Under the pieces are notes generated by a model that had not been told where the DNA came from, ran no database searches, and saw nothing but the letters and a program-made list of their open reading frames with translations. This document shows positions 12,831 through 16,802 of a stretch of 60,584 nt of DNA, piece by piece; positions within the stretch are counted from its first letter, which is position 1, and every line of letters begins with the position of its first letter. The stretch covers positions 1-60,584 of the forward strand of contig CAYODY010000005.1 in assembly GCA_964402965.1 (NCBI GenBank). The letters are read 5' to 3'. Position numbers and translations under genes: made by a program. The stretch is from an uncultured Candidatus Saccharibacteria bacterium (GTDB taxonomy: Bacteria; Patescibacteriota; Doudnabacteria; UBA920).

Positions 12831-13802
12831 CTACTTCTGGTCTTTTGGACAATAGGCGCTAGTACGCCCGCCCAACTTAATGCTTTTTATTATTGTACCA
12901 CAGACGAGGCACAGCTGATTCTTGCGTCCATACACGTAATGGTGTTTGCCCATACTTCCCCATTTTCCATCTGTTCGAATGAAATCTCCAACACTAGAGC
13001 CTTTATACTTCACACCCATTTTTAAAACAGGTTTAATTTGTTCGAACACGGCGCGTAATTCTTTTTTAGAGAGAGAATCCACTTGGCGATCCGGTGCAAT
13101 TCGCGCATGAAACAAAATTTCATCACTATATATATTTCCAATTCCAACAACCACTTTTGTATCCATTAACGCTAATTTAATTGGAATCTTTTTTCTATTC
13201 TTTAAAGCATTCTCAAAAACTTCAAAAGTGAAATCTTTTTCCAAAGGCTCAGGTCCGTAATTTTTAAACTCCCCTACTTTATCTAAGTCTTTACTGTGAA
13301 CGAGGCGTAAGTATCCAAACTGACGAACATCGTTGTAGTACAAAGTTGAGCCATCTGTGAAATAGAAAACAACGTGCGTATACTTACATGGAAGTTTCAC
13401 TAATGGCGCAGTAACTTTATTTAAAATTTTGTATTTACTCCCCGTCTTTTTTGCCTGAATTTTATCTTCAAATATAAACTGCCCTGTCATTTTTAGATGC
13501 ACTAACATGGTTATTGGCATTGAGCTTGGGCTAGCGTCTACCTTGTTTTTCAATCTAGATAAATTTGATAAATTGAAAATTAGCATTTTCCCACGACGGT
13601 TTACAGACAAAATTTTTCTTCCTGTTAAAAGATTCGCAAATTCATCTACAGTTTTCTGATTTGCTACGCGGATATTACTCACAGTTTGTGGACCAATGCT
13701 AATAATCTTCGCCAAGTGGACAGCGAGACGTTTAATTTGCCGACCTTTAAGACGGGAATTTAATTCAGTAACAACTGTATGTACTTCGGGAAGTTCTGGC
13801 AT
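12831..13802 (-). CDS. mutM: Formamidopyrimidine-DNA glycosylase (Fpg/MutM)
   Basis: Start moved to MPELPEV, the catalytic N-terminal Pro. C-terminal zinc finger CLVCGT...YCPKDQ. Confidence 0.88.
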   Translation of the reverse strand: MPELPEVHTVVTELNSRLKGRQIKRLAVHLAKIISIGPQTVSNIRVANQKTVDEFANLLTGRKILSVNRRGKMLIFNLSNLSRLKNKVDASPSSMPITMLVHLKMTGQFIFEDKIQAKKTGSKYKILNKVTAPLVKLPCKYTHVVFYFTDGSTLYYNDVRQFGYLRLVHSKDLDKVGEFKNYGPEPLEKDFTFEVFENALKNRKKIPIKLALMDTKVVVGIGNIYSDEILFHARIAPDRQVDSLSKKELRAVFEQIKPVLKMGVKYKGSSVGDFIRTDGKWGSMGKHHYVYGRKNQLCLVCGTIIKSIKLGGRTSAYCPKDQK

Positions 13803-13840
13803 AGTTGAATTATGTCTTATTCCTGCCACTCCAGCAAGGT

Positions 13841-13869
13841 TTGACTACTCTAATATTGATAAGTATAAT
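13841..13869 (+). promoter_or_regulatory. Near-consensus sigma-70 promoter
   Basis: TTGACT-17 nt-TATAAT, followed by a 51-nt leader with AGGAGG before the ATG at 13921. Confidence 0.7.
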
Positions 13870-13920
13870 GGCTTTGGTTGTTTAACCATAATTTGCTCAG
13901 AATTATTAGGAGGATATAAA

Positions 13921-14409
13921 ATGAGTATTTTAGAACCGGGGAAAGTTGCACTTTTTATTTCCCAAAGCTCATCAGACACAGAGATTAGCGCTTTCGTTAG
14001 AACAGAAGCAGATGTGCTATACCACTACAAAGTAATAACGACAAGCGGCAACAACATTTTTCAAAGCCAAGAAGGTGCTATATTGACAGATGAAAATAGT
14101 CTAAAAGCTAGATATGTCGTCACTGCAAAAACTACAAACCCTAGAATGCTAAATGAGTTGGCACCATTCTATTACCATAACACCACAGATGATTTTGAAT
14201 GGTATGACCCAAGCGTCAAGCTATCATCAGCATTGTGGCTGGCCTACCTAACCTCATGTGTAGAGAATTCGTACACATCGGCACGGTCCGAAAAAGCTTC
14301 TAGTGAGGTTTTATCTTCGTTGCAACTTTTAAAAGAATATCTGTGTAGAAATCTTACGAAATGGACCAATCAAGAAAGAGCTGTGACGGTCAATTTGATA
14401 AGGTCATAA
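13921..14409 (+). CDS. Hypothetical protein
   Basis: Start moved to MSILEPG, which has AGGAGG upstream. The longer track ORF would overlap fpg. Confidence 0.5.
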   Translation: MSILEPGKVALFISQSSSDTEISAFVRTEADVLYHYKVITTSGNNIFQSQEGAILTDENSLKARYVVTAKTTNPRMLNELAPFYYHNTTDDFEWYDPSVKLSSALWLAYLTSCVENSYTSARSEKASSEVLSSLQLLKEYLCRNLTKWTNQERAVTVNLIRS

Positions 14410-14497: not shown

Positions 14498-16018
14498 ATG
14501 CAAGATTTCTTCAAATCTATCCCACATAAATTTACTGCAGACGAGAAAGCTTTAATACAAAAAGCTCTAGATTTTGCTACGGTTGCGCACAAAGGTCAAA
14601 AAAGAAAAAGTGGCGAACCTTTTCATACTCATCCTAAATCTGCAGCAATTATTTTAGGGCAAATATTTCCAGACCCAGCAACTATTTGTGCAACTATTCT
14701 CCATGACATTACCGAAGACACAAATACGACTGATGAAACTTTACGCAAAGAATTTGGTGATGAGATTGCATCTTTGGTAGATGGAGTGACCAAGCTTGGA
14801 AAAGTCCGTCTACGAAATAGTACAGATGAATACTACTTGGAAAATTTGCGCAAAATGTTCATGGCTACAAGTAAAGATGTACGCGTAATGTTAGTTAAGC
14901 TTGCGGACAGACTTCATAACATGAAAACAATCTCTGCACTTTCTCCAGTTAAACAACAAAAAATTGCTAGTGAAACTTTAGAAATGTATGCGCCAATTGC
15001 CGCTCGCCTTGGAATTGGAGCTTGGAAAGACGAATTGGAAGATCTTTCGTTCCAGGTAGTTGACCCTGAAAATTACAAAAAAACTGAAGCTCTTTTGAGA
15101 GAAAGACTAGAACAACGTAATTTGAGTACAAAAGCAGTCCAAAAAGAACTTGCGAGTATTTTACGTTTGGAAGGTATTAAATTCCAAAATATCACAGGTC
15201 GCACCAAACGAATATATTCTCTATACAAAAAACTTCAACGCTACGATGGAGATATTTCAAAAATTTACGATAAAGTTGCCCTGAGAATAATTACAAAGTC
15301 TACTTCGGATTGTTACGCCGCATTAGGAATTATTCATAAACATTTTCAACCAATGCCCGGTCGCGTTAAAGACTACATAGCGACACCAAAACCAAATGGT
15401 TACCAAAGTTTACACACCACAGTTTTTGACTACGATGGACGCGCGTTTGAAGTACAAATTCGTACAGACTTAATGCACGAATCTGCAGAACGCGGAATTG
15501 CCGCTCACTGGTTCTATGAAGAACAAGGCAAACCTGAAAAGGCTCAAAAAGGTGCATCTTGGTTTAAAGAACTTCACGCTTGGCAAGAAGAAATGGCAAA
15601 TAATCCCGAAGAATTTCTGGAAACTTTAAAAATAGATTTTTTCCGAGATCGTATTTTCGTACTCACTCCAAAGGGTGATGTAAAAGATTTACCAATGGGT
15701 GCTTCTGTAATTGACTTTGCATTTTCGGTTCATACAGACTTGGGTTACCAAATGATGGGCGCAAAAATTAACGGTAAAATGGGTAAAATTACAGACACAC
15801 TCAAACAAGGAGATGTTGTAGAAATTTTAAAATCTAAAAAGCCAGCAACACCATCGCGCGACTGGCTTGCTGCGGCAAAAACTAGCCACGCCCGTGCACT
15901 AATTCGTAAATATTTAGTAGAACACGATAAAGGAATTTTTCAAAGGGTTCGTGAACTTAAACTACAAGATATCTCCTCTCGCCTACCAGGACTGCCTACA
16001 TTTTTCAGGAAAAAATAA
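14498..16018 (+). CDS. rel: RelA/SpoT homologue (HD hydrolase, synthetase and TGS domains)
   Basis: HD region HTHPKSAAIILG...LHDITEDT. Synthetase region RTKRIYSLYKKL...GYQSLHT. TGS region VLTPKGDVKDLP.GAS.IDFAF.VHTDLG. Confidence 0.9.
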   Translation: MQDFFKSIPHKFTADEKALIQKALDFATVAHKGQKRKSGEPFHTHPKSAAIILGQIFPDPATICATILHDITEDTNTTDETLRKEFGDEIASLVDGVTKLGKVRLRNSTDEYYLENLRKMFMATSKDVRVMLVKLADRLHNMKTISALSPVKQQKIASETLEMYAPIAARLGIGAWKDELEDLSFQVVDPENYKKTEALLRERLEQRNLSTKAVQKELASILRLEGIKFQNITGRTKRIYSLYKKLQRYDGDISKIYDKVALRIITKSTSDCYAALGIIHKHFQPMPGRVKDYIATPKPNGYQSLHTTVFDYDGRAFEVQIRTDLMHESAERGIAAHWFYEEQGKPEKAQKGASWFKELHAWQEEMANNPEEFLETLKIDFFRDRIFVLTPKGDVKDLPMGASVIDFAFSVHTDLGYQMMGAKINGKMGKITDTLKQGDVVEILKSKKPATPSRDWLAAAKTSHARALIRKYLVEHDKGIFQRVRELKLQDISSRLPGLPTFFRKK

Positions 16019-16094
16019 TTATCCATATTCTTCAGAAAAACTTTATTTTTGTTTTATATAGAATTGAACAGTGCTATGCCATACTTGCAAAAGT

Positions 16095-16165
16095 GGGCCT
16101 GGTATGGTTACGAGCGTGGAGTTGACATTCGCGTTTCGGGAGTTCAATCCTCCTCAGGTCCACCA
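16095..16165 (+). ncRNA. Non-canonical tRNA-like element (acceptor stem, T arm, encoded CCA; no D stem)
   Basis: Acceptor gggcctg/caggtcc has 7 bp including one G-U. T arm is gggag-ttcaatc-ctcct, followed by discriminator A and CCA. Only 36 nt lie between acceptor and T arm. There is a weak anticodon-like arm gtgga-gttgaca-ttcgc. Confidence 0.45.
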
Positions 16166-16224
16166 CTTCAGCTTGACAATAGTTCAAGAACATCTTAAAA
16201 TATTCTTAGATGTCAACTCCACGC
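16114..16224. repeat. 15-nt perfect inverted repeat flanking the T arm and CCA
   Basis: GCGTGGAGTTGACAT at 16114-16128 and its exact complement ATGTCAACTCCACGC at 16210-16224. Confidence 0.9.
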
Positions 16225-16250
16225 GGGCTCAAACTATATTGAGACGCAAC

Positions 16251-16276
16251 AAAAAACACCCGCAAGGGTGTTTTTT
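16251..16276. terminator. Bidirectional intrinsic terminator
   Basis: An A6 run, caccc-gcaa-gggtg, then a T6 run. It lies between the tRNA-like locus and the 3' end of ndk. Confidence 0.75.
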
Positions 16277-16295
16277 AATTATACGTTTTTACAAA

Positions 16296-16802
16296 CTATT
16301 TTGTAACTGTATGTTTTGTATACAATGGTTCGTGACTAACTAATTCTTCTGGATCAAACCAAACTGCAATTTCAGTTTTTGCTTCTTCAAGAGTTGCAGA
16401 ACCATGAATTAGGTTGTATAGTTTTGGATCGCTAGTTGAGTCTATGTGCTTGAATGATGCGTGAGCGTAATCTCCACGAATTGTTCCAGGAGCTGAAGAT
16501 TTAGGTTCTGTTGAACCGATCATCTTACGAACAACTTCAACTGCTTCAATACCTTCTAAAACAATTGCCACAATTGGACCAGAAGTTAACATGTCTATCA
16601 TTGCATTACGAACATGTTCACCACGGCGAATTGCTAAATCTTCAGTATAATGTTTACCTGCTCTGTCTGAATTTGGCTGTAGCATTTTCAAGCCAATAAT
16701 TTTCAATCCAACACGTTCGAAGCGTTGTAGAATTTCCCCTACTAAACCTCGTTCTAAAGTATCTGGTTTTAAAAGTACCAAGCTCTGTTCTATTGTTTCC
16801 AT
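16296..16802 (-). CDS. ndk: Nucleoside-diphosphate kinase
   Basis: LVLLKPD...GLVGEI..RFE..GLKI.GLKM and the active-site region NLIHGS. Confidence 0.88.
   Translation of the reverse strand: METIEQSLVLLKPDTLERGLVGEILQRFERVGLKIIGLKMLQPNSDRAGKHYTEDLAIRRGEHVRNAMIDMLTSGPIVAIVLEGIEAVEVVRKMIGSTEPKSSAPGTIRGDYAHASFKHIDSTSDPKLYNLIHGSATLEEAKTEIAVWFDPEELVSHEPLYTKHTVTK

What the first reader, a model, noticed from the sequence alone, without database searches (positions are those of the whole stretch)
16056..16276. A non-canonical tRNA-like element with CCA lies just downstream of rel, with a competing 15-nt inverted repeat
16095-16165 has a 7-bp acceptor stem, a good T arm (gggag-TTCAATC-ctcct), discriminator A and an encoded CCA, as in the three true tRNAs here. 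Only 36 nt lie between acceptor and T arm, there is no D stem, and the anticodon-like arm is weak (loop gttgaca). Its 5' part (GGGCCUG-GUAUGGUUACGAG) resembles the tRNA-like domain of tmRNA. Inside it, GCGTGGAGTTGACAT (16114-16128) is perfectly complementary to 16210-16224, about 45 nt beyond the CCA. That helix is topologically incompatible with the acceptor stem, so the two folds are alternatives. A further long-range helix, 16056-16067 with 16229-16239, could close a domain of about 185 nt ending at the 16251-16276 terminator. The element is 76 nt downstream of, and on the same strand as, the RelA/SpoT homologue, an enzyme family regulated by uncharged tRNA. A tRNA mimic there is intriguing, but that link is speculative.
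Basis: partly seen in the sequence, partly recalled or inferred. Interest (0 to 1): 0.7.

Follow-up and report, generated by a model that had tools for sequence, protein, structure and literature searches.

The report
Mini-tmRNA mimic with cognate antisense RNA
A Patescibacteria genome carries a 71-nt RNA gene that looks like only the tRNA-like head of tmRNA (the ribosome-rescue RNA), followed by a small RNA gene whose 5' end pairs perfectly with it; this pairing co-evolves in a second species, so the two appear to be an accessory RNA-only regulatory or toxin-antitoxin-like pair.

Summary
Window 16095-16165 is a 71-nt tRNA-like gene. It has a 7-bp acceptor stem with a G3·U70 wobble (the alanine identity pair), no D stem, a 6-bp hairpin, a T arm, discriminator A and an encoded CCA. 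ARAGORN and Rfam at gathering thresholds do not call it. Scanned alone, it aligns end to end with the tmRNA model with the whole mRNA-like core deleted (27.5 bits). The published "TLD-only" tmRNA of phage DS6A aligns the same way (34.7 bits).

The 15-nt inverted repeat is perfect. A near-consensus promoter (11/12) lies between its arms, and the predicted start falls 1-2 nt before the downstream arm. That defines a ~69-nt sRNA: a 5' single-stranded seed, a hairpin and a terminator.

A second species (L089; Rel 88% identical) has the same module. It shows compensatory changes in every helix and seven two-sided changes in the long-range pairing. The closest relatives of both species have an empty rel-ndk spacer or other cargo, so the module is accessory and not tied to rel.

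Best reading: a tmRNA/tRNA-Ala mimic plus a cognate antisense sRNA. The function is inferred from literature on TLD-only RNAs that inhibit trans-translation. I rate it a new variant of a known kind.

The parts
16019..16094 (+). Leader between the rel stop codon and the tRNA-like gene. It holds no terminator and no sigma-70-like promoter at the scan threshold. It contains a conserved TTGAAC (16064-16069) that is complementary to the T-loop.
   Evidence: I7. L089 also has no predicted promoter upstream of its copy. I infer that the element is at least partly co-transcribed with rel and released by RNase P.
16095..16165 (+). TLD-only tmRNA / tRNA-Ala-like RNA gene (71 nt). Acceptor 16095-16101/16155-16161 with G3·U70. 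Stemless D-loop-like segment 16102-16114, containing GG. P2-like hairpin 16115-16120/16128-16133 with loop GUUGACA 16121-16127. Linker 16134-16137. T arm 16138-16142/16150-16154 with loop UUCAAUC. Discriminator A 16162. CCA 16163-16165.
   Evidence: (RF00023 global alignment, 27.5 bits). Not called by ARAGORN or by Rfam at gathering thresholds.
16114..16128 (+). Target arm inside the tRNA-like RNA: the 5' strand of the hairpin plus its loop, GCGUGGAGUUGACAU. The loop offers a 7-nt single-stranded toehold containing UUGA, a YUNR-type motif.
16173..16201 (+). Promoter-like site for the antisense sRNA: TTGACA, 17 nt, TAAAAT (11/12 match). The -35 context AGCTTGACAAT is identical in L089.
   Evidence: L089: TTGACA, 16 nt, TATTAT with an upstream TG, 11/12.
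16208..16276 (+). Predicted ~69-nt sRNA. Its 5' single-stranded seed 16210-16224 (AUGUCAACUCCACGC) is perfectly complementary to 16114-16128. It continues with hairpin 16223-16247, an A-rich linker and terminator hairpin 16251-16276.
   Evidence: the seed is unpaired in the MFE of both species' sRNAs; z -4.8 and -4.5; cognate cofold gain -8.9 kcal/mol.
16251..16276 (.). Bidirectional intrinsic terminator shared with the convergent ndk gene. It corresponds to the ancestral rel/ndk terminator seen at empty sites.
   Evidence: (I5).

Best explanation
The rel-ndk spacer of this Doudnabacteria-like Patescibacterium carries an accessory, protein-free two-gene RNA module.

Gene 1 (16095-16165) encodes a ~71-nt RNA that is essentially only the tRNA-like domain (TLD) of tmRNA. 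It has an alanine-identity acceptor/T minihelix with ACCA and a stemless D-loop. A short closed P2-like hairpin stands where tmRNA has its pseudoknots and tag reading frame.

Gene 2 (about 16208-16276) is a small RNA made from its own strong promoter. Its first 15 nt are an exact antisense of the hairpin's loop and 5' strand.

Shown here: the anatomy, the tmRNA-type alignment, the promoter prediction, and the co-evolution of all helices and of the pairing in a second species.

Inferred:
- The mimic is released from rel read-through transcripts by RNase P and tRNA 3' processing.
- It is probably alanylated, given G3·U70, A73 and CCA.
- By analogy with TLD-only RNAs reported to inhibit tmRNA strongly, it competes for SmpB and possibly for AlaRS and EF-Tu. 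That would dampen or block trans-translation.
- The sRNA docks on the exposed loop, invades the stem by strand displacement and forms a 15-bp all-Watson-Crick duplex. This unfolds or marks the mimic for cleavage and so neutralises it.

On this reading the pair behaves like an RNA-RNA toxin-antitoxin (type I/VIII-like) or a tunable brake on ribosome rescue. On read-through transcripts the same pairing can act in cis and delay maturation of the mimic.
For: Anatomy.
- The element has a 7-bp acceptor with G3·U70, a T arm and ACCA, and a 36-nt body without a D stem.
- Rfam tmRNA RF00023 aligns globally with the 304-nt core deleted: 27.5 bits, E 3.7e-10. It outscores the other families of its clan.
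- The published TLD-only tmRNA of phage DS6A aligns the same way at 34.7 bits. A TLD-only element on viral contig L112 gives 22.4 bits.
- No conserved small ORF or tag frame is present on either strand.

Antisense partner.
- The inverted repeat is 15/15.
- The promoter matches 11/12 and its -10 ends at 16201, so the start is predicted near 16208, against an arm start of 16210.
- In L089 the repeat is 14/14. Its 11/12 promoter ends at 2167, so the start is predicted near 2174, which is the first base of the arm.
- Both sRNAs fold as a free 5' seed, a hairpin and a terminator.

Co-evolution between the window and L089. Flanking genes are 78-79% identical in nucleotides, the TLD 69% and the sRNA 56%.
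- Acceptor: one two-sided change, with G·U kept.
- T stem: one two-sided change.
- Hairpin: three two-sided changes and one one-sided change.
- Long-range pairing: 7 of 8 positions 5' of UUGAC differ, yet both arm pairs stay perfectly complementary.
- Cognate pairs gain -8.9 and -3.5 kcal/mol on cofolding. Swapped pairs gain 0.

Accessory status.
- The site is empty or holds other cargo in the nearest relatives.
- The module lies in a stretch that is 99.3-100% identical to the window in 10 contigs from 10 sequencing runs.

Literature.
- A TLD-only molecule strongly inhibits tmRNA, perhaps by titrating SmpB (PMC4131195, citing Mao 2009; PMC11915505).
- Most Patescibacteria genomes carry a standard tmRNA: 5252 in 6765 genomes. 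Three are listed as 'Standard NoCDS' (PMC11915505, Suppl. Table 2).
- RNA-RNA (type VIII) toxin-antitoxin systems exist (PMC10767807, PMC10097628).
Against: - Only two independent lineages are known. One metagenome scan and two viral scans found no further module.
- There are no expression data. The promoter, transcript ends, RNase P processing, alanylation and SmpB binding are all predictions.
- The element scores below the Rfam tmRNA gathering score (27.5 against 47). The L089 copy scores only 13.9 bits.
- The GAC...GGAC motif that flanks P2a in the tmRNA consensus is deleted or altered in the alignment. SmpB binding is therefore not assured.
- Its acceptor and T arm also match ordinary phage tRNA-Ala genes. 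Descent from tRNA-Ala rather than from tmRNA cannot be excluded.
- DS6A and L112 have no antisense partner against the hairpin, so the pairing is not a general feature of TLD-only genes.
- Whether this genome has smpB and a standard ssrA is unknown. Neither was found in the 60-kb window.
- Toxicity is pure inference.
Confidence: 0.45

Rival explanations
1. Cis-acting RNA switch. The whole stretch from the rel stop codon to the terminator is one transcript, the rel 3' UTR. The long-range helix (16114-16128 with 16210-16224) and the tRNA-like fold are alternative conformations. When the tRNA-like fold forms, RNase P cuts. That releases the small RNA and strips rel mRNA of its protective terminator hairpin. 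When the long helix forms, processing is blocked.
For: - No terminator or predicted promoter lies between rel and the element in either species.
- For the 16095-16276 RNA the two folds are nearly iso-energetic: -59.9 against -56.9 kcal/mol.
- The MFE of the 241-nt region uses the long helix.
- Covariation of the arms fits cis pairing as well as trans pairing.
Against: - A near-consensus promoter lies between the arms and is conserved, with an identical AGCTTGACAAT -35 context. Its predicted start falls at the first base of the downstream arm in both species. A purely cis model leaves this unexplained.
- In L089 the MFE of the long transcript does not use the repeat helix.
- Relatives regulate rel without the module.
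- Keeping G3·U70, A73 and CCA is unnecessary for a mere RNase P processing signal.
Confidence: 0.2
2. A working, extremely reduced ribosome-rescue RNA. The 71-nt RNA is a CDS-less tmRNA that works with SmpB to release stalled ribosomes without tagging, as proposed for mitochondrial and some plastid tmRNAs. The sRNA may be a second piece that pairs to extend the P2 helix.
For: - The element aligns to the tmRNA model across both ends, with G3·U70 and ACCA.
- CDS-less tmRNAs are accepted in mitochondria and plastids. Three 'Standard NoCDS' entries are listed for Patescibacteria (PMC11915505).
- Two-piece tmRNAs held together by base pairing exist (PMC11915505).
Against: - The module is absent from the closest relatives. 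An essential rescue RNA would not be sporadic.
- About 78% of Patescibacteria genomes show a standard tmRNA.
- The sRNA has no conserved reading frame or tag.
- In the duplex the sRNA body leaves next to the tRNA-like core rather than at the distal end of P2. This differs from both the standard and the permuted topology (my inference from the sequence).
- The gene order does not match permuted tmRNA genes (RF04321 gives only 11-16 bits, on the 3' half).
Confidence: 0.1
3. DNA-level invertible promoter switch (inverton). The two 15-bp arms are recombination sites flanking an 81-bp segment that carries the promoter. Inversion would break the tRNA-like gene and redirect the promoter against rel.
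For: - Perfect inverted repeats flank a strong promoter-like site.
- Repeats that differ between species while staying inverted copies are also typical of invertons.
Against: - All 10 contigs of this species, from 10 runs, and L089 show the same orientation.
- No recombinase was found among the genes characterised from fpg to hisS (12.8-20.4 kb); three ORFs upstream of fpg were not scanned.
- An 81-bp (76-bp in L089) invertible segment would be unusually short (my own knowledge).
- This model does not explain why the left arm is exactly the hairpin 5' strand plus loop of a structured RNA. It also does not explain why the transcription start coincides with the right arm, or why the RNA's other helices covary.
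Confidence: 0.05
4. Dedicated alanine carrier for a non-ribosomal aminoacyl-transfer reaction, such as cell-wall cross-bridge or lipid alanylation. A minimal AlaRS substrate lacking an anticodon arm would stay off the ribosome.
For: - G3·U70, A73 and CCA are conserved in both copies.
- AlaRS needs only the acceptor helix (established knowledge).
Against: - No Fem/MurM/MprF-type transferase gene lies next to it.
- This model gives the cognate antisense sRNA no role.
- The distribution is sporadic.
Confidence: 0.05
5. A non-functional remnant: a decaying tRNA-Ala or tmRNA pseudogene, or an integration scar, with a chance inverted repeat.
For: - It is sub-threshold for every tRNA and tmRNA detector.
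- It sits at a variable cargo site.
- tRNA and tmRNA genes are common integration targets (PMC11915505).
Against: - Every helix keeps pairing through compensatory changes at 56-69% nucleotide identity, while the flanking genes are 78-79% identical.
- The repeat is perfect in both species despite seven changed positions, and it is not expected by chance.
- No integrase or direct repeats flank it.
Confidence: 0.03

Closest known systems
TLD-only tmRNA of mycobacteriophage DS6A (tmRNA Website ID 11587; JN698994 28478-28560)
   Same: - Both are little more than the tmRNA tRNA-like domain: a G3·U70 acceptor, a stemless D-loop, a short closed P2 and a T arm.
- Both give the same kind of RF00023 alignment with the core deleted (34.7 against 27.5 bits).
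- A similar molecule is reported to inhibit tmRNA strongly (PMC4131195, PMC11915505).
   Different: - DS6A's copy is in a phage. This one is chromosomal, in a conserved housekeeping neighbourhood of a Patescibacterium.
- DS6A does not encode CCA (it reads CTA), and it keeps the GAC/GCAC motifs better.
- DS6A has no antisense partner against its hairpin.
CDS-less tmRNAs of jakobid and oomycete mitochondria (RF02544), Mallomonadaceae plastids, and the three Patescibacteria 'Standard NoCDS' entries (9FT-COMBO-53-11 sp001772805)
   Same: These are tmRNA derivatives of about 65-80 nt that lack a tag reading frame (PMC11915505). One group is from the same phylum.
   Different: - Those are taken to be the organism's or organelle's only tmRNA and are vertically conserved. 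This element is sporadic and probably additional.
- No partner sRNA has been described for them.
- I could not retrieve the Patescibacteria NoCDS sequences for comparison.
Antisense-RNA control pairs and RNA-RNA toxin-antitoxin systems (type I such as hok/sok; type VIII such as SdsR/RyeA and CreT/CreA; ColE1 RNA I/RNA II)
   Same: - A short perfect complementarity starts from an exposed loop with a U-turn-like motif.
- The antisense RNA has a strong promoter of its own.
- The seed and target diverge quickly and are cognate-specific.
- The distribution is sporadic and accessory.
   Different: - The genes lie in tandem on the same strand rather than overlapping on opposite strands. The complementarity is therefore an encoded inverted repeat.
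- The target is a tRNA/tmRNA mimic, not an mRNA.
- Toxicity is unproven.
Two-piece (permuted) tmRNA
   Same: Two RNAs from one locus are held together by base pairing that involves the P2 region. tRNA-type processing is implied.
   Different: - The segment order is different: both acceptor strands lie on piece 1.
- There is no tag frame and there are no pseudoknots.
- The RF04321 match is weak and covers only the 3' half.
tRNA-like 3'-end processing elements (mascRNA/MALAT1; tymovirus tRNA-like structures)
   Same: A tRNA-like structure sits downstream of a coding or long transcript and is likely cut by RNase P. Weak Rfam hits to these families appear for L089.
   Different: - Those families are eukaryotic or viral.
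- The scores are far below threshold.
- This element encodes CCA and the alanine identity pair.

Membership tests
tmRNA (Rfam RF00023, standard form) | tRNA-like domain: 7-bp acceptor with G3·U70, a stemless D-loop with GG, a T arm and a 3' ACCA | tested here: met
   Both termini align to model positions 1-29 and about 334-374.
tmRNA (Rfam RF00023, standard form) | Score at or above the curated gathering threshold (47 bits) | tested here: not met
   27.5 bits for the window and 13.9 bits for L089. No hit in gathering mode. ARAGORN finds no tmRNA.
tmRNA (Rfam RF00023, standard form) | mRNA-like domain with a resume codon, tag reading frame and stop codon, plus pseudoknots | tested here: not met
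   A 7-nt loop replaces 304 model positions. No conserved ORF lies on either strand of the module.
tmRNA (Rfam RF00023, standard form) | Works with SmpB and is charged by AlaRS | not testable with these tools
The rest of the genome was not available.
TLD-only / CDS-less tmRNA derivatives (DS6A type) | About 65-85 nt consisting of the tRNA-like domain with a closed P2 and no coding part, closer to the tmRNA model than to the tRNA model | tested here: met
   tmRNA is the best family in its clan. The reference DS6A element behaves identically. The tRNA model does not reach its gathering score.
TLD-only / CDS-less tmRNA derivatives (DS6A type) | Inhibits endogenous tmRNA-SmpB when expressed | not testable with these tools
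   Literature only (PMC4131195, PMC11915505, citing Mao et al. 2009, which I could not read).
Canonical tRNA (RF00005 / ARAGORN) | Cloverleaf with a D stem and a conserved 7-nt anticodon loop, scoring above threshold | tested here: not met
   No call at default thresholds. There are 36-37 nt between the acceptor and the T stem, and no D stem. The relaxed ARAGORN 'anticodon' differs between the homologues, UGA against GAC.
Permuted two-piece tmRNA (RF04321) | The acceptor 3' piece lies upstream of the 5' acceptor/coding piece, with a tag frame in the second piece | tested here: not met
   Both acceptor strands lie in one 71-nt gene. RF04321 gives 11-16 bits on the 3' half only. There is no tag frame.
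Antisense sRNA/target pair or RNA-RNA toxin-antitoxin (type I/VIII-like) | Extended complementarity between two adjacent RNA genes, maintained by co-evolution | tested here: met
   15/15 and 14/14 complementarity with seven two-sided changes. Pairing energy is specific to cognate pairs.
Antisense sRNA/target pair or RNA-RNA toxin-antitoxin (type I/VIII-like) | Independent transcription of the antisense RNA | tested here: inconclusive
   Promoter predictions only: 11/12 in both species, with the start predicted at the seed. No transcript data.
Antisense sRNA/target pair or RNA-RNA toxin-antitoxin (type I/VIII-like) | Growth inhibition by one partner, relieved by the other | not testable with these tools
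   Needs an experiment.
Invertible promoter switch (inverton) | Both orientations present in populations, and a cognate recombinase | tested here: not met
   A single orientation appears in 10 contigs from 10 runs and in L089. No recombinase was found among the genes characterised from 12.8 to 20.4 kb. Read-level data were not available.

The most novel reading that the evidence does not exclude
This would be an RNA-only addiction or defence module whose toxin is a tmRNA mimic. The 71-nt TLD-only RNA would shut down ribosome rescue by sequestering SmpB, and possibly AlaRS and EF-Tu. A constitutively made antisense sRNA would hold it in check by invading its hairpin from the loop toehold. That would be the first toxin-antitoxin-like pair aimed at trans-translation. 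It would also be the first cellular, non-phage use of a TLD-only RNA, spreading between Patescibacteria lineages through a cargo hot spot between rel and ndk.
Probability: 0.25. Interest if true: 0.8.

Novelty: new variant of a known kind. Interest (0 to 1): 0.6.

Why it matters
TLD-only tmRNA derivatives have been noted only as curiosities: one phage, a few organelles and three unexplained Patescibacteria entries. Their biology is essentially unstudied.

This locus adds three things.
- It is a chromosomal example that is clearly accessory.
- Compensatory evolution shows that the RNA structure is under selection.
- It has a dedicated antisense sRNA that co-evolves with it. That implies the cell must control the mimic, which fits the reported ability of such RNAs to block tmRNA-SmpB.

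If confirmed, it would be a natural, switchable inhibitor of trans-translation, a pathway pursued as an antibiotic target. It would also be a new kind of protein-free two-RNA module in the reduced genomes of Patescibacteria. The system is small enough, about 180 nt, to test directly in a heterologous host.

Tried and rejected
- Link to rel. I searched 80 genome loci and more than 20 close-relative loci around Rel homologues. The element is absent from all but one lineage, so I reject a conserved rel-associated function.
- Hidden tag peptide or small protein. Six-frame small-ORF comparison of the two modules found nothing shared. The only GCA-initiated frames run into the terminator and are not conserved. 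Rejected.
- Permuted or two-piece tmRNA reading. The segment order and topology do not fit. Rejected.
- Wider family search. The pattern GGTCCACCAN{0,10}AGCTTGACAAT gave only 8 chance hits in metagenome contigs and none in viral contigs. The TLD 3' pattern in viral contigs hit phage tRNA-Ala genes, permuted tmRNAs and one TLD-only element, but no module. blastn against the phage and plasmid collections found only T-arm similarity.
- Structural scan of all fetched loci for short-bodied acceptor/T minihelices. Only the window species and L089 were found.
- Antisense partners next to the other TLD-only genes (DS6A, L112). None pairs with the hairpin.
- The outer helix 16056-16067/16229-16239 is weak and not conserved.
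- Cargo ORFs at the same site in relatives gave no Pfam hit, apart from a LOG-like gene. They offer no functional clue.
- I did not build a covariance model. MAFFT misaligned the two sequences at the acceptor, and no unsearched sequence collection remained.
- Mao et al. 2009 could not be read. Its result is cited second-hand from PMC4131195 and PMC11915505.
Full report
**1. What is in the sequence**

The window is a low-GC (38%) piece of a Patescibacteria genome. The Rel homologues closest to it are labelled Candidatus Doudnabacteria or generic Saccharibacteria MAGs.

The local gene order is fpg(-), an unknown ORF, rel(+, 14498-16018), ndk(-, 16296-16802), cyclophilin(-), comEC(-), hisS(-). 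The finding lies in the 277-nt spacer between the convergent rel and ndk genes.

Positions 16095-16165 read GGGCCUG-GUAUGGUUACGAG-CGUGGA-GUUGACA-UUCGCG-UUUC-GGGAG-UUCAAUC-CUCCU-CAGGUCC-A-CCA. This gives:
- a 7-bp acceptor stem whose third pair is G·U;
- 13 unpaired nucleotides containing GG and no D stem;
- a 6-bp hairpin with a 7-nt loop;
- a 4-nt linker and a canonical T arm;
- discriminator A and an encoded CCA.

The window's genuine tRNAs also encode CCA. ARAGORN at default settings and Rfam at gathering thresholds do not report the element. The inverted repeat 16114-16128/16210-16224 is 15/15 complementary, unique in the window and not expected by chance. An 11-bp perfect hairpin followed by a T run sits at 16251-16276.

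**2. What the tRNA-like part resembles**

Scanned on its own, the element's best Rfam family is tmRNA (RF00023). The alignment is global, covering model positions 1-374, with the 304-nt core deleted and replaced by the 7-nt loop. It scores 27.5 bits with E 3.7e-10 for the 81-nt slice. The other members of the clan score lower.

For calibration I located the only published bacterial-virus "TLD-only" tmRNA, in mycobacteriophage DS6A (JN698994 28478-28560). It aligns in the same manner at 34.7 bits. A further TLD-only element on an IMG/VR contig (L112) gives 22.4 bits.

The element is therefore a tRNA-like-domain-only derivative. It fails membership of tmRNA proper: it is below the gathering score, has no tag frame and has no pseudoknots. 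It also fails membership of tRNA: it has no D stem, and its "anticodon" is not conserved, reading UGA in the window and GAC in the homologue.

Its acceptor and T arm are also those of ordinary tRNA-Ala genes. Descent from tRNA-Ala rather than from ssrA cannot be excluded. In either case G3·U70, A73 and CCA are the alanine identity set.

**3. The second gene**

Between the repeat arms lies a sigma-70-type promoter, TTGACA-17-TAAAAT (16173-16201), matching 11 of 12 positions. A start about 7 nt after the -10 falls at 16208, and the downstream arm begins at 16210.

The predicted transcript (16208-16276) folds as a free 15-nt 5' end, a hairpin, an A-rich linker and the terminator hairpin (z = -4.8). 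This is the classic layout of a seed-first bacterial sRNA. No sigma-70-like promoter and no terminator were found between rel and the tRNA-like gene. The mimic is therefore probably made from rel read-through transcripts and cut out by tRNA-processing enzymes. That step is inferred.

**4. Comparative evidence**

Rel-ndk synteny is widely conserved, but the spacer usually holds only a bidirectional terminator (2-83 nt) or unrelated cargo. The cargo seen is unknown ORFs of 161, 175 and 316 aa and a LOG-like gene.

One other lineage, L089 (Logan SRR1027651; Rel 88% identical), carries a homologous module at the same place. It has the same architecture:
- acceptor GGGCCAG/CUGGUCC with G3·U70, hairpin CUCUU/AAGAG, T arm and ACCA;
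- the identical -35 context AGCTTGACAAT;
- a TTGACA-16-TATTAT promoter (11/12, with an upstream TG) ending at 2167;
- a 14/14 repeat whose downstream arm starts at 2174, exactly the predicted start.

The flanking genes are 78-79% identical at the nucleotide level, the mimic 69% and the sRNA 56%. Even so, every helix survives:
- one two-sided change in the acceptor;
- one in the T stem;
- three, plus one one-sided change, in the hairpin;
- seven of the eight positions 5' of the shared UUGAC in the long-range pairing, each matched in the partner arm.

Cofolding gains -8.9 and -3.5 kcal/mol for the cognate pairs and nothing for swapped pairs. No small ORF is shared.

The nearest Rel relatives of L089 (90-91% identical) and of the window (85-87%) have empty sites. 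The module sits between the rel stop codon and the pre-existing terminator. Within the window's own species the stretch carrying the module is 99.3-100% identical in 10 contigs from 10 sequencing runs, always in the same orientation.

The module is therefore real, under selection for RNA pairing, accessory, and not functionally tied to rel.

**5. How it most likely works**

Shown: a TLD-only mimic gene, and a downstream RNA segment whose pairing to the mimic's hairpin loop and 5' strand co-evolves.

Predicted: that segment is the 5' end of an independently transcribed sRNA.

Inferred mechanism. The hairpin loop (GUUGACA, containing a UUGA U-turn-type motif) is a 7-nt toehold. The sRNA seed docks there and displaces the hairpin's 3' strand. 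In the window the hairpin contains two G·U pairs, whereas the sRNA duplex is all Watson-Crick. The resulting 14-15-bp duplex would unfold the P2/D-loop side of the mimic and could be an RNase III substrate.

What the mimic does is inferred from the literature. Hudson et al. (PMC4131195) and Nawrocki et al. (PMC11915505) report that a molecule like the DS6A TLD, chargeable or not, strongly inhibits tmRNA in E. coli, perhaps by titrating SmpB. Most Patescibacteria genomes have a standard tmRNA: 5252 in 6765 genomes, with three "Standard NoCDS" entries. This element is therefore probably an extra copy-like mimic.

A mimic that can poison ribosome rescue, a strong antisense gene and a patchy distribution at a cargo site together point to an RNA-RNA toxin-antitoxin-like pair, or a regulated brake on trans-translation. 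Type VIII systems set the precedent (PMC10767807, PMC10097628).

**6. Rivals**

- Purely cis switch in the rel 3' UTR. The two folds of the 16095-16276 RNA are within 3 kcal/mol, and there is no terminator after rel. This is plausible and may coexist with the trans mode. It does not explain the conserved promoter or why the predicted start coincides with the seed.
- Genuine CDS-less rescue RNA, possibly two-piece. The sporadic distribution, the lack of any frame and the wrong topology argue against it.
- DNA inverton. It would also explain repeat covariation, but only one orientation is seen, no recombinase is nearby, and it leaves the RNA covariation unexplained.
- Non-ribosomal alanine carrier. 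There are no partner genes, and it gives the sRNA no role.
- Pseudogene or chance. The compensatory changes refute this.

**7. Limits**

Only two lineages are known. The single metagenome scan and the viral scans found no further members.

No transcript data, no whole genome and no biochemistry were available. The L089 copy scores poorly against RF00023 (13.9 bits), and conserved P2a-flanking motifs of tmRNA are missing. SmpB binding is therefore a hypothesis.

**8. Verdict**

Its tmRNA-like reading and its idea of competing helices are supported. The proposed link to rel and the outer closing helix are not.

The element is a new variant of a known but barely studied kind, the TLD-only tmRNA derivative. 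It is distinguished by a co-evolving cognate antisense sRNA and by accessory, chromosomal carriage in Patescibacteria.

Noticed in passing
window 16019-16295; loci L081, L084, L086, L087, L098, L100-L104: The convergent rel-ndk spacer is a cargo hot spot in this clade. It is empty (2-83 nt, terminator only) in many relatives. In others it holds unknown ORFs of 161, 175 or 316 aa with no Pfam hit, or a LOG/Lysine_decarbox-like gene.
   Followed up: partly
window 14498-16018 (+): The Rel homologue is only 506 aa, with HD, RelA_SpoT and TGS domains. It ends about 60 aa after TGS, so it lacks the C-terminal zinc-finger/ACT region of long RSH enzymes. This length is conserved across the 120 closest homologues.
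   Followed up: no
L112 2454-2526 (-), IMG/VR UViG_3300050500_000423: A second TLD-only tmRNA-like element lies on an 87.6-kb GC-rich viral contig (RF00023 22.4 bits, core deleted). ARAGORN does not call it. About 50-130 nt downstream there are 9-nt inverted copies of both acceptor strands.
   Followed up: partly
L113 4509-4930 (-) and L114 7049-7393 (-), IMG/VR contigs: ARAGORN calls permuted (two-piece) tmRNA genes with tags ANDAFFGEVRLAA and ANEANFLMAA on viral contigs. L114 also carries tRNA-Ala and tRNA-Pro genes.
   Followed up: no
L105 28478-28560 (JN698994, phage DS6A): The published TLD-only tmRNA of DS6A lies in the gp33-gp34 gap and is not annotated in the GenBank record. It does not encode CCA; the sequence reads CTA.
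   Followed up: yes
window 16064-16069 and 16142-16151; L089 2035-2040: A conserved TTGAAC lies 24-25 nt upstream of the tRNA-like gene and is complementary to its T-loop (GUUCAA/GUUCGA). It could be a precursor pairing or a -35-like element. It is too close to the gene for a standard promoter geometry.
   Followed up: partly
window 12831-13829 (-) and 13696-14409 (+): The ORF listed for fpg overlaps the ORF of an unknown 237-aa protein upstream of rel by about 130 nt. The protein has no Pfam hit, and relatives carry different unknown ORFs at this position.
   Followed up: no
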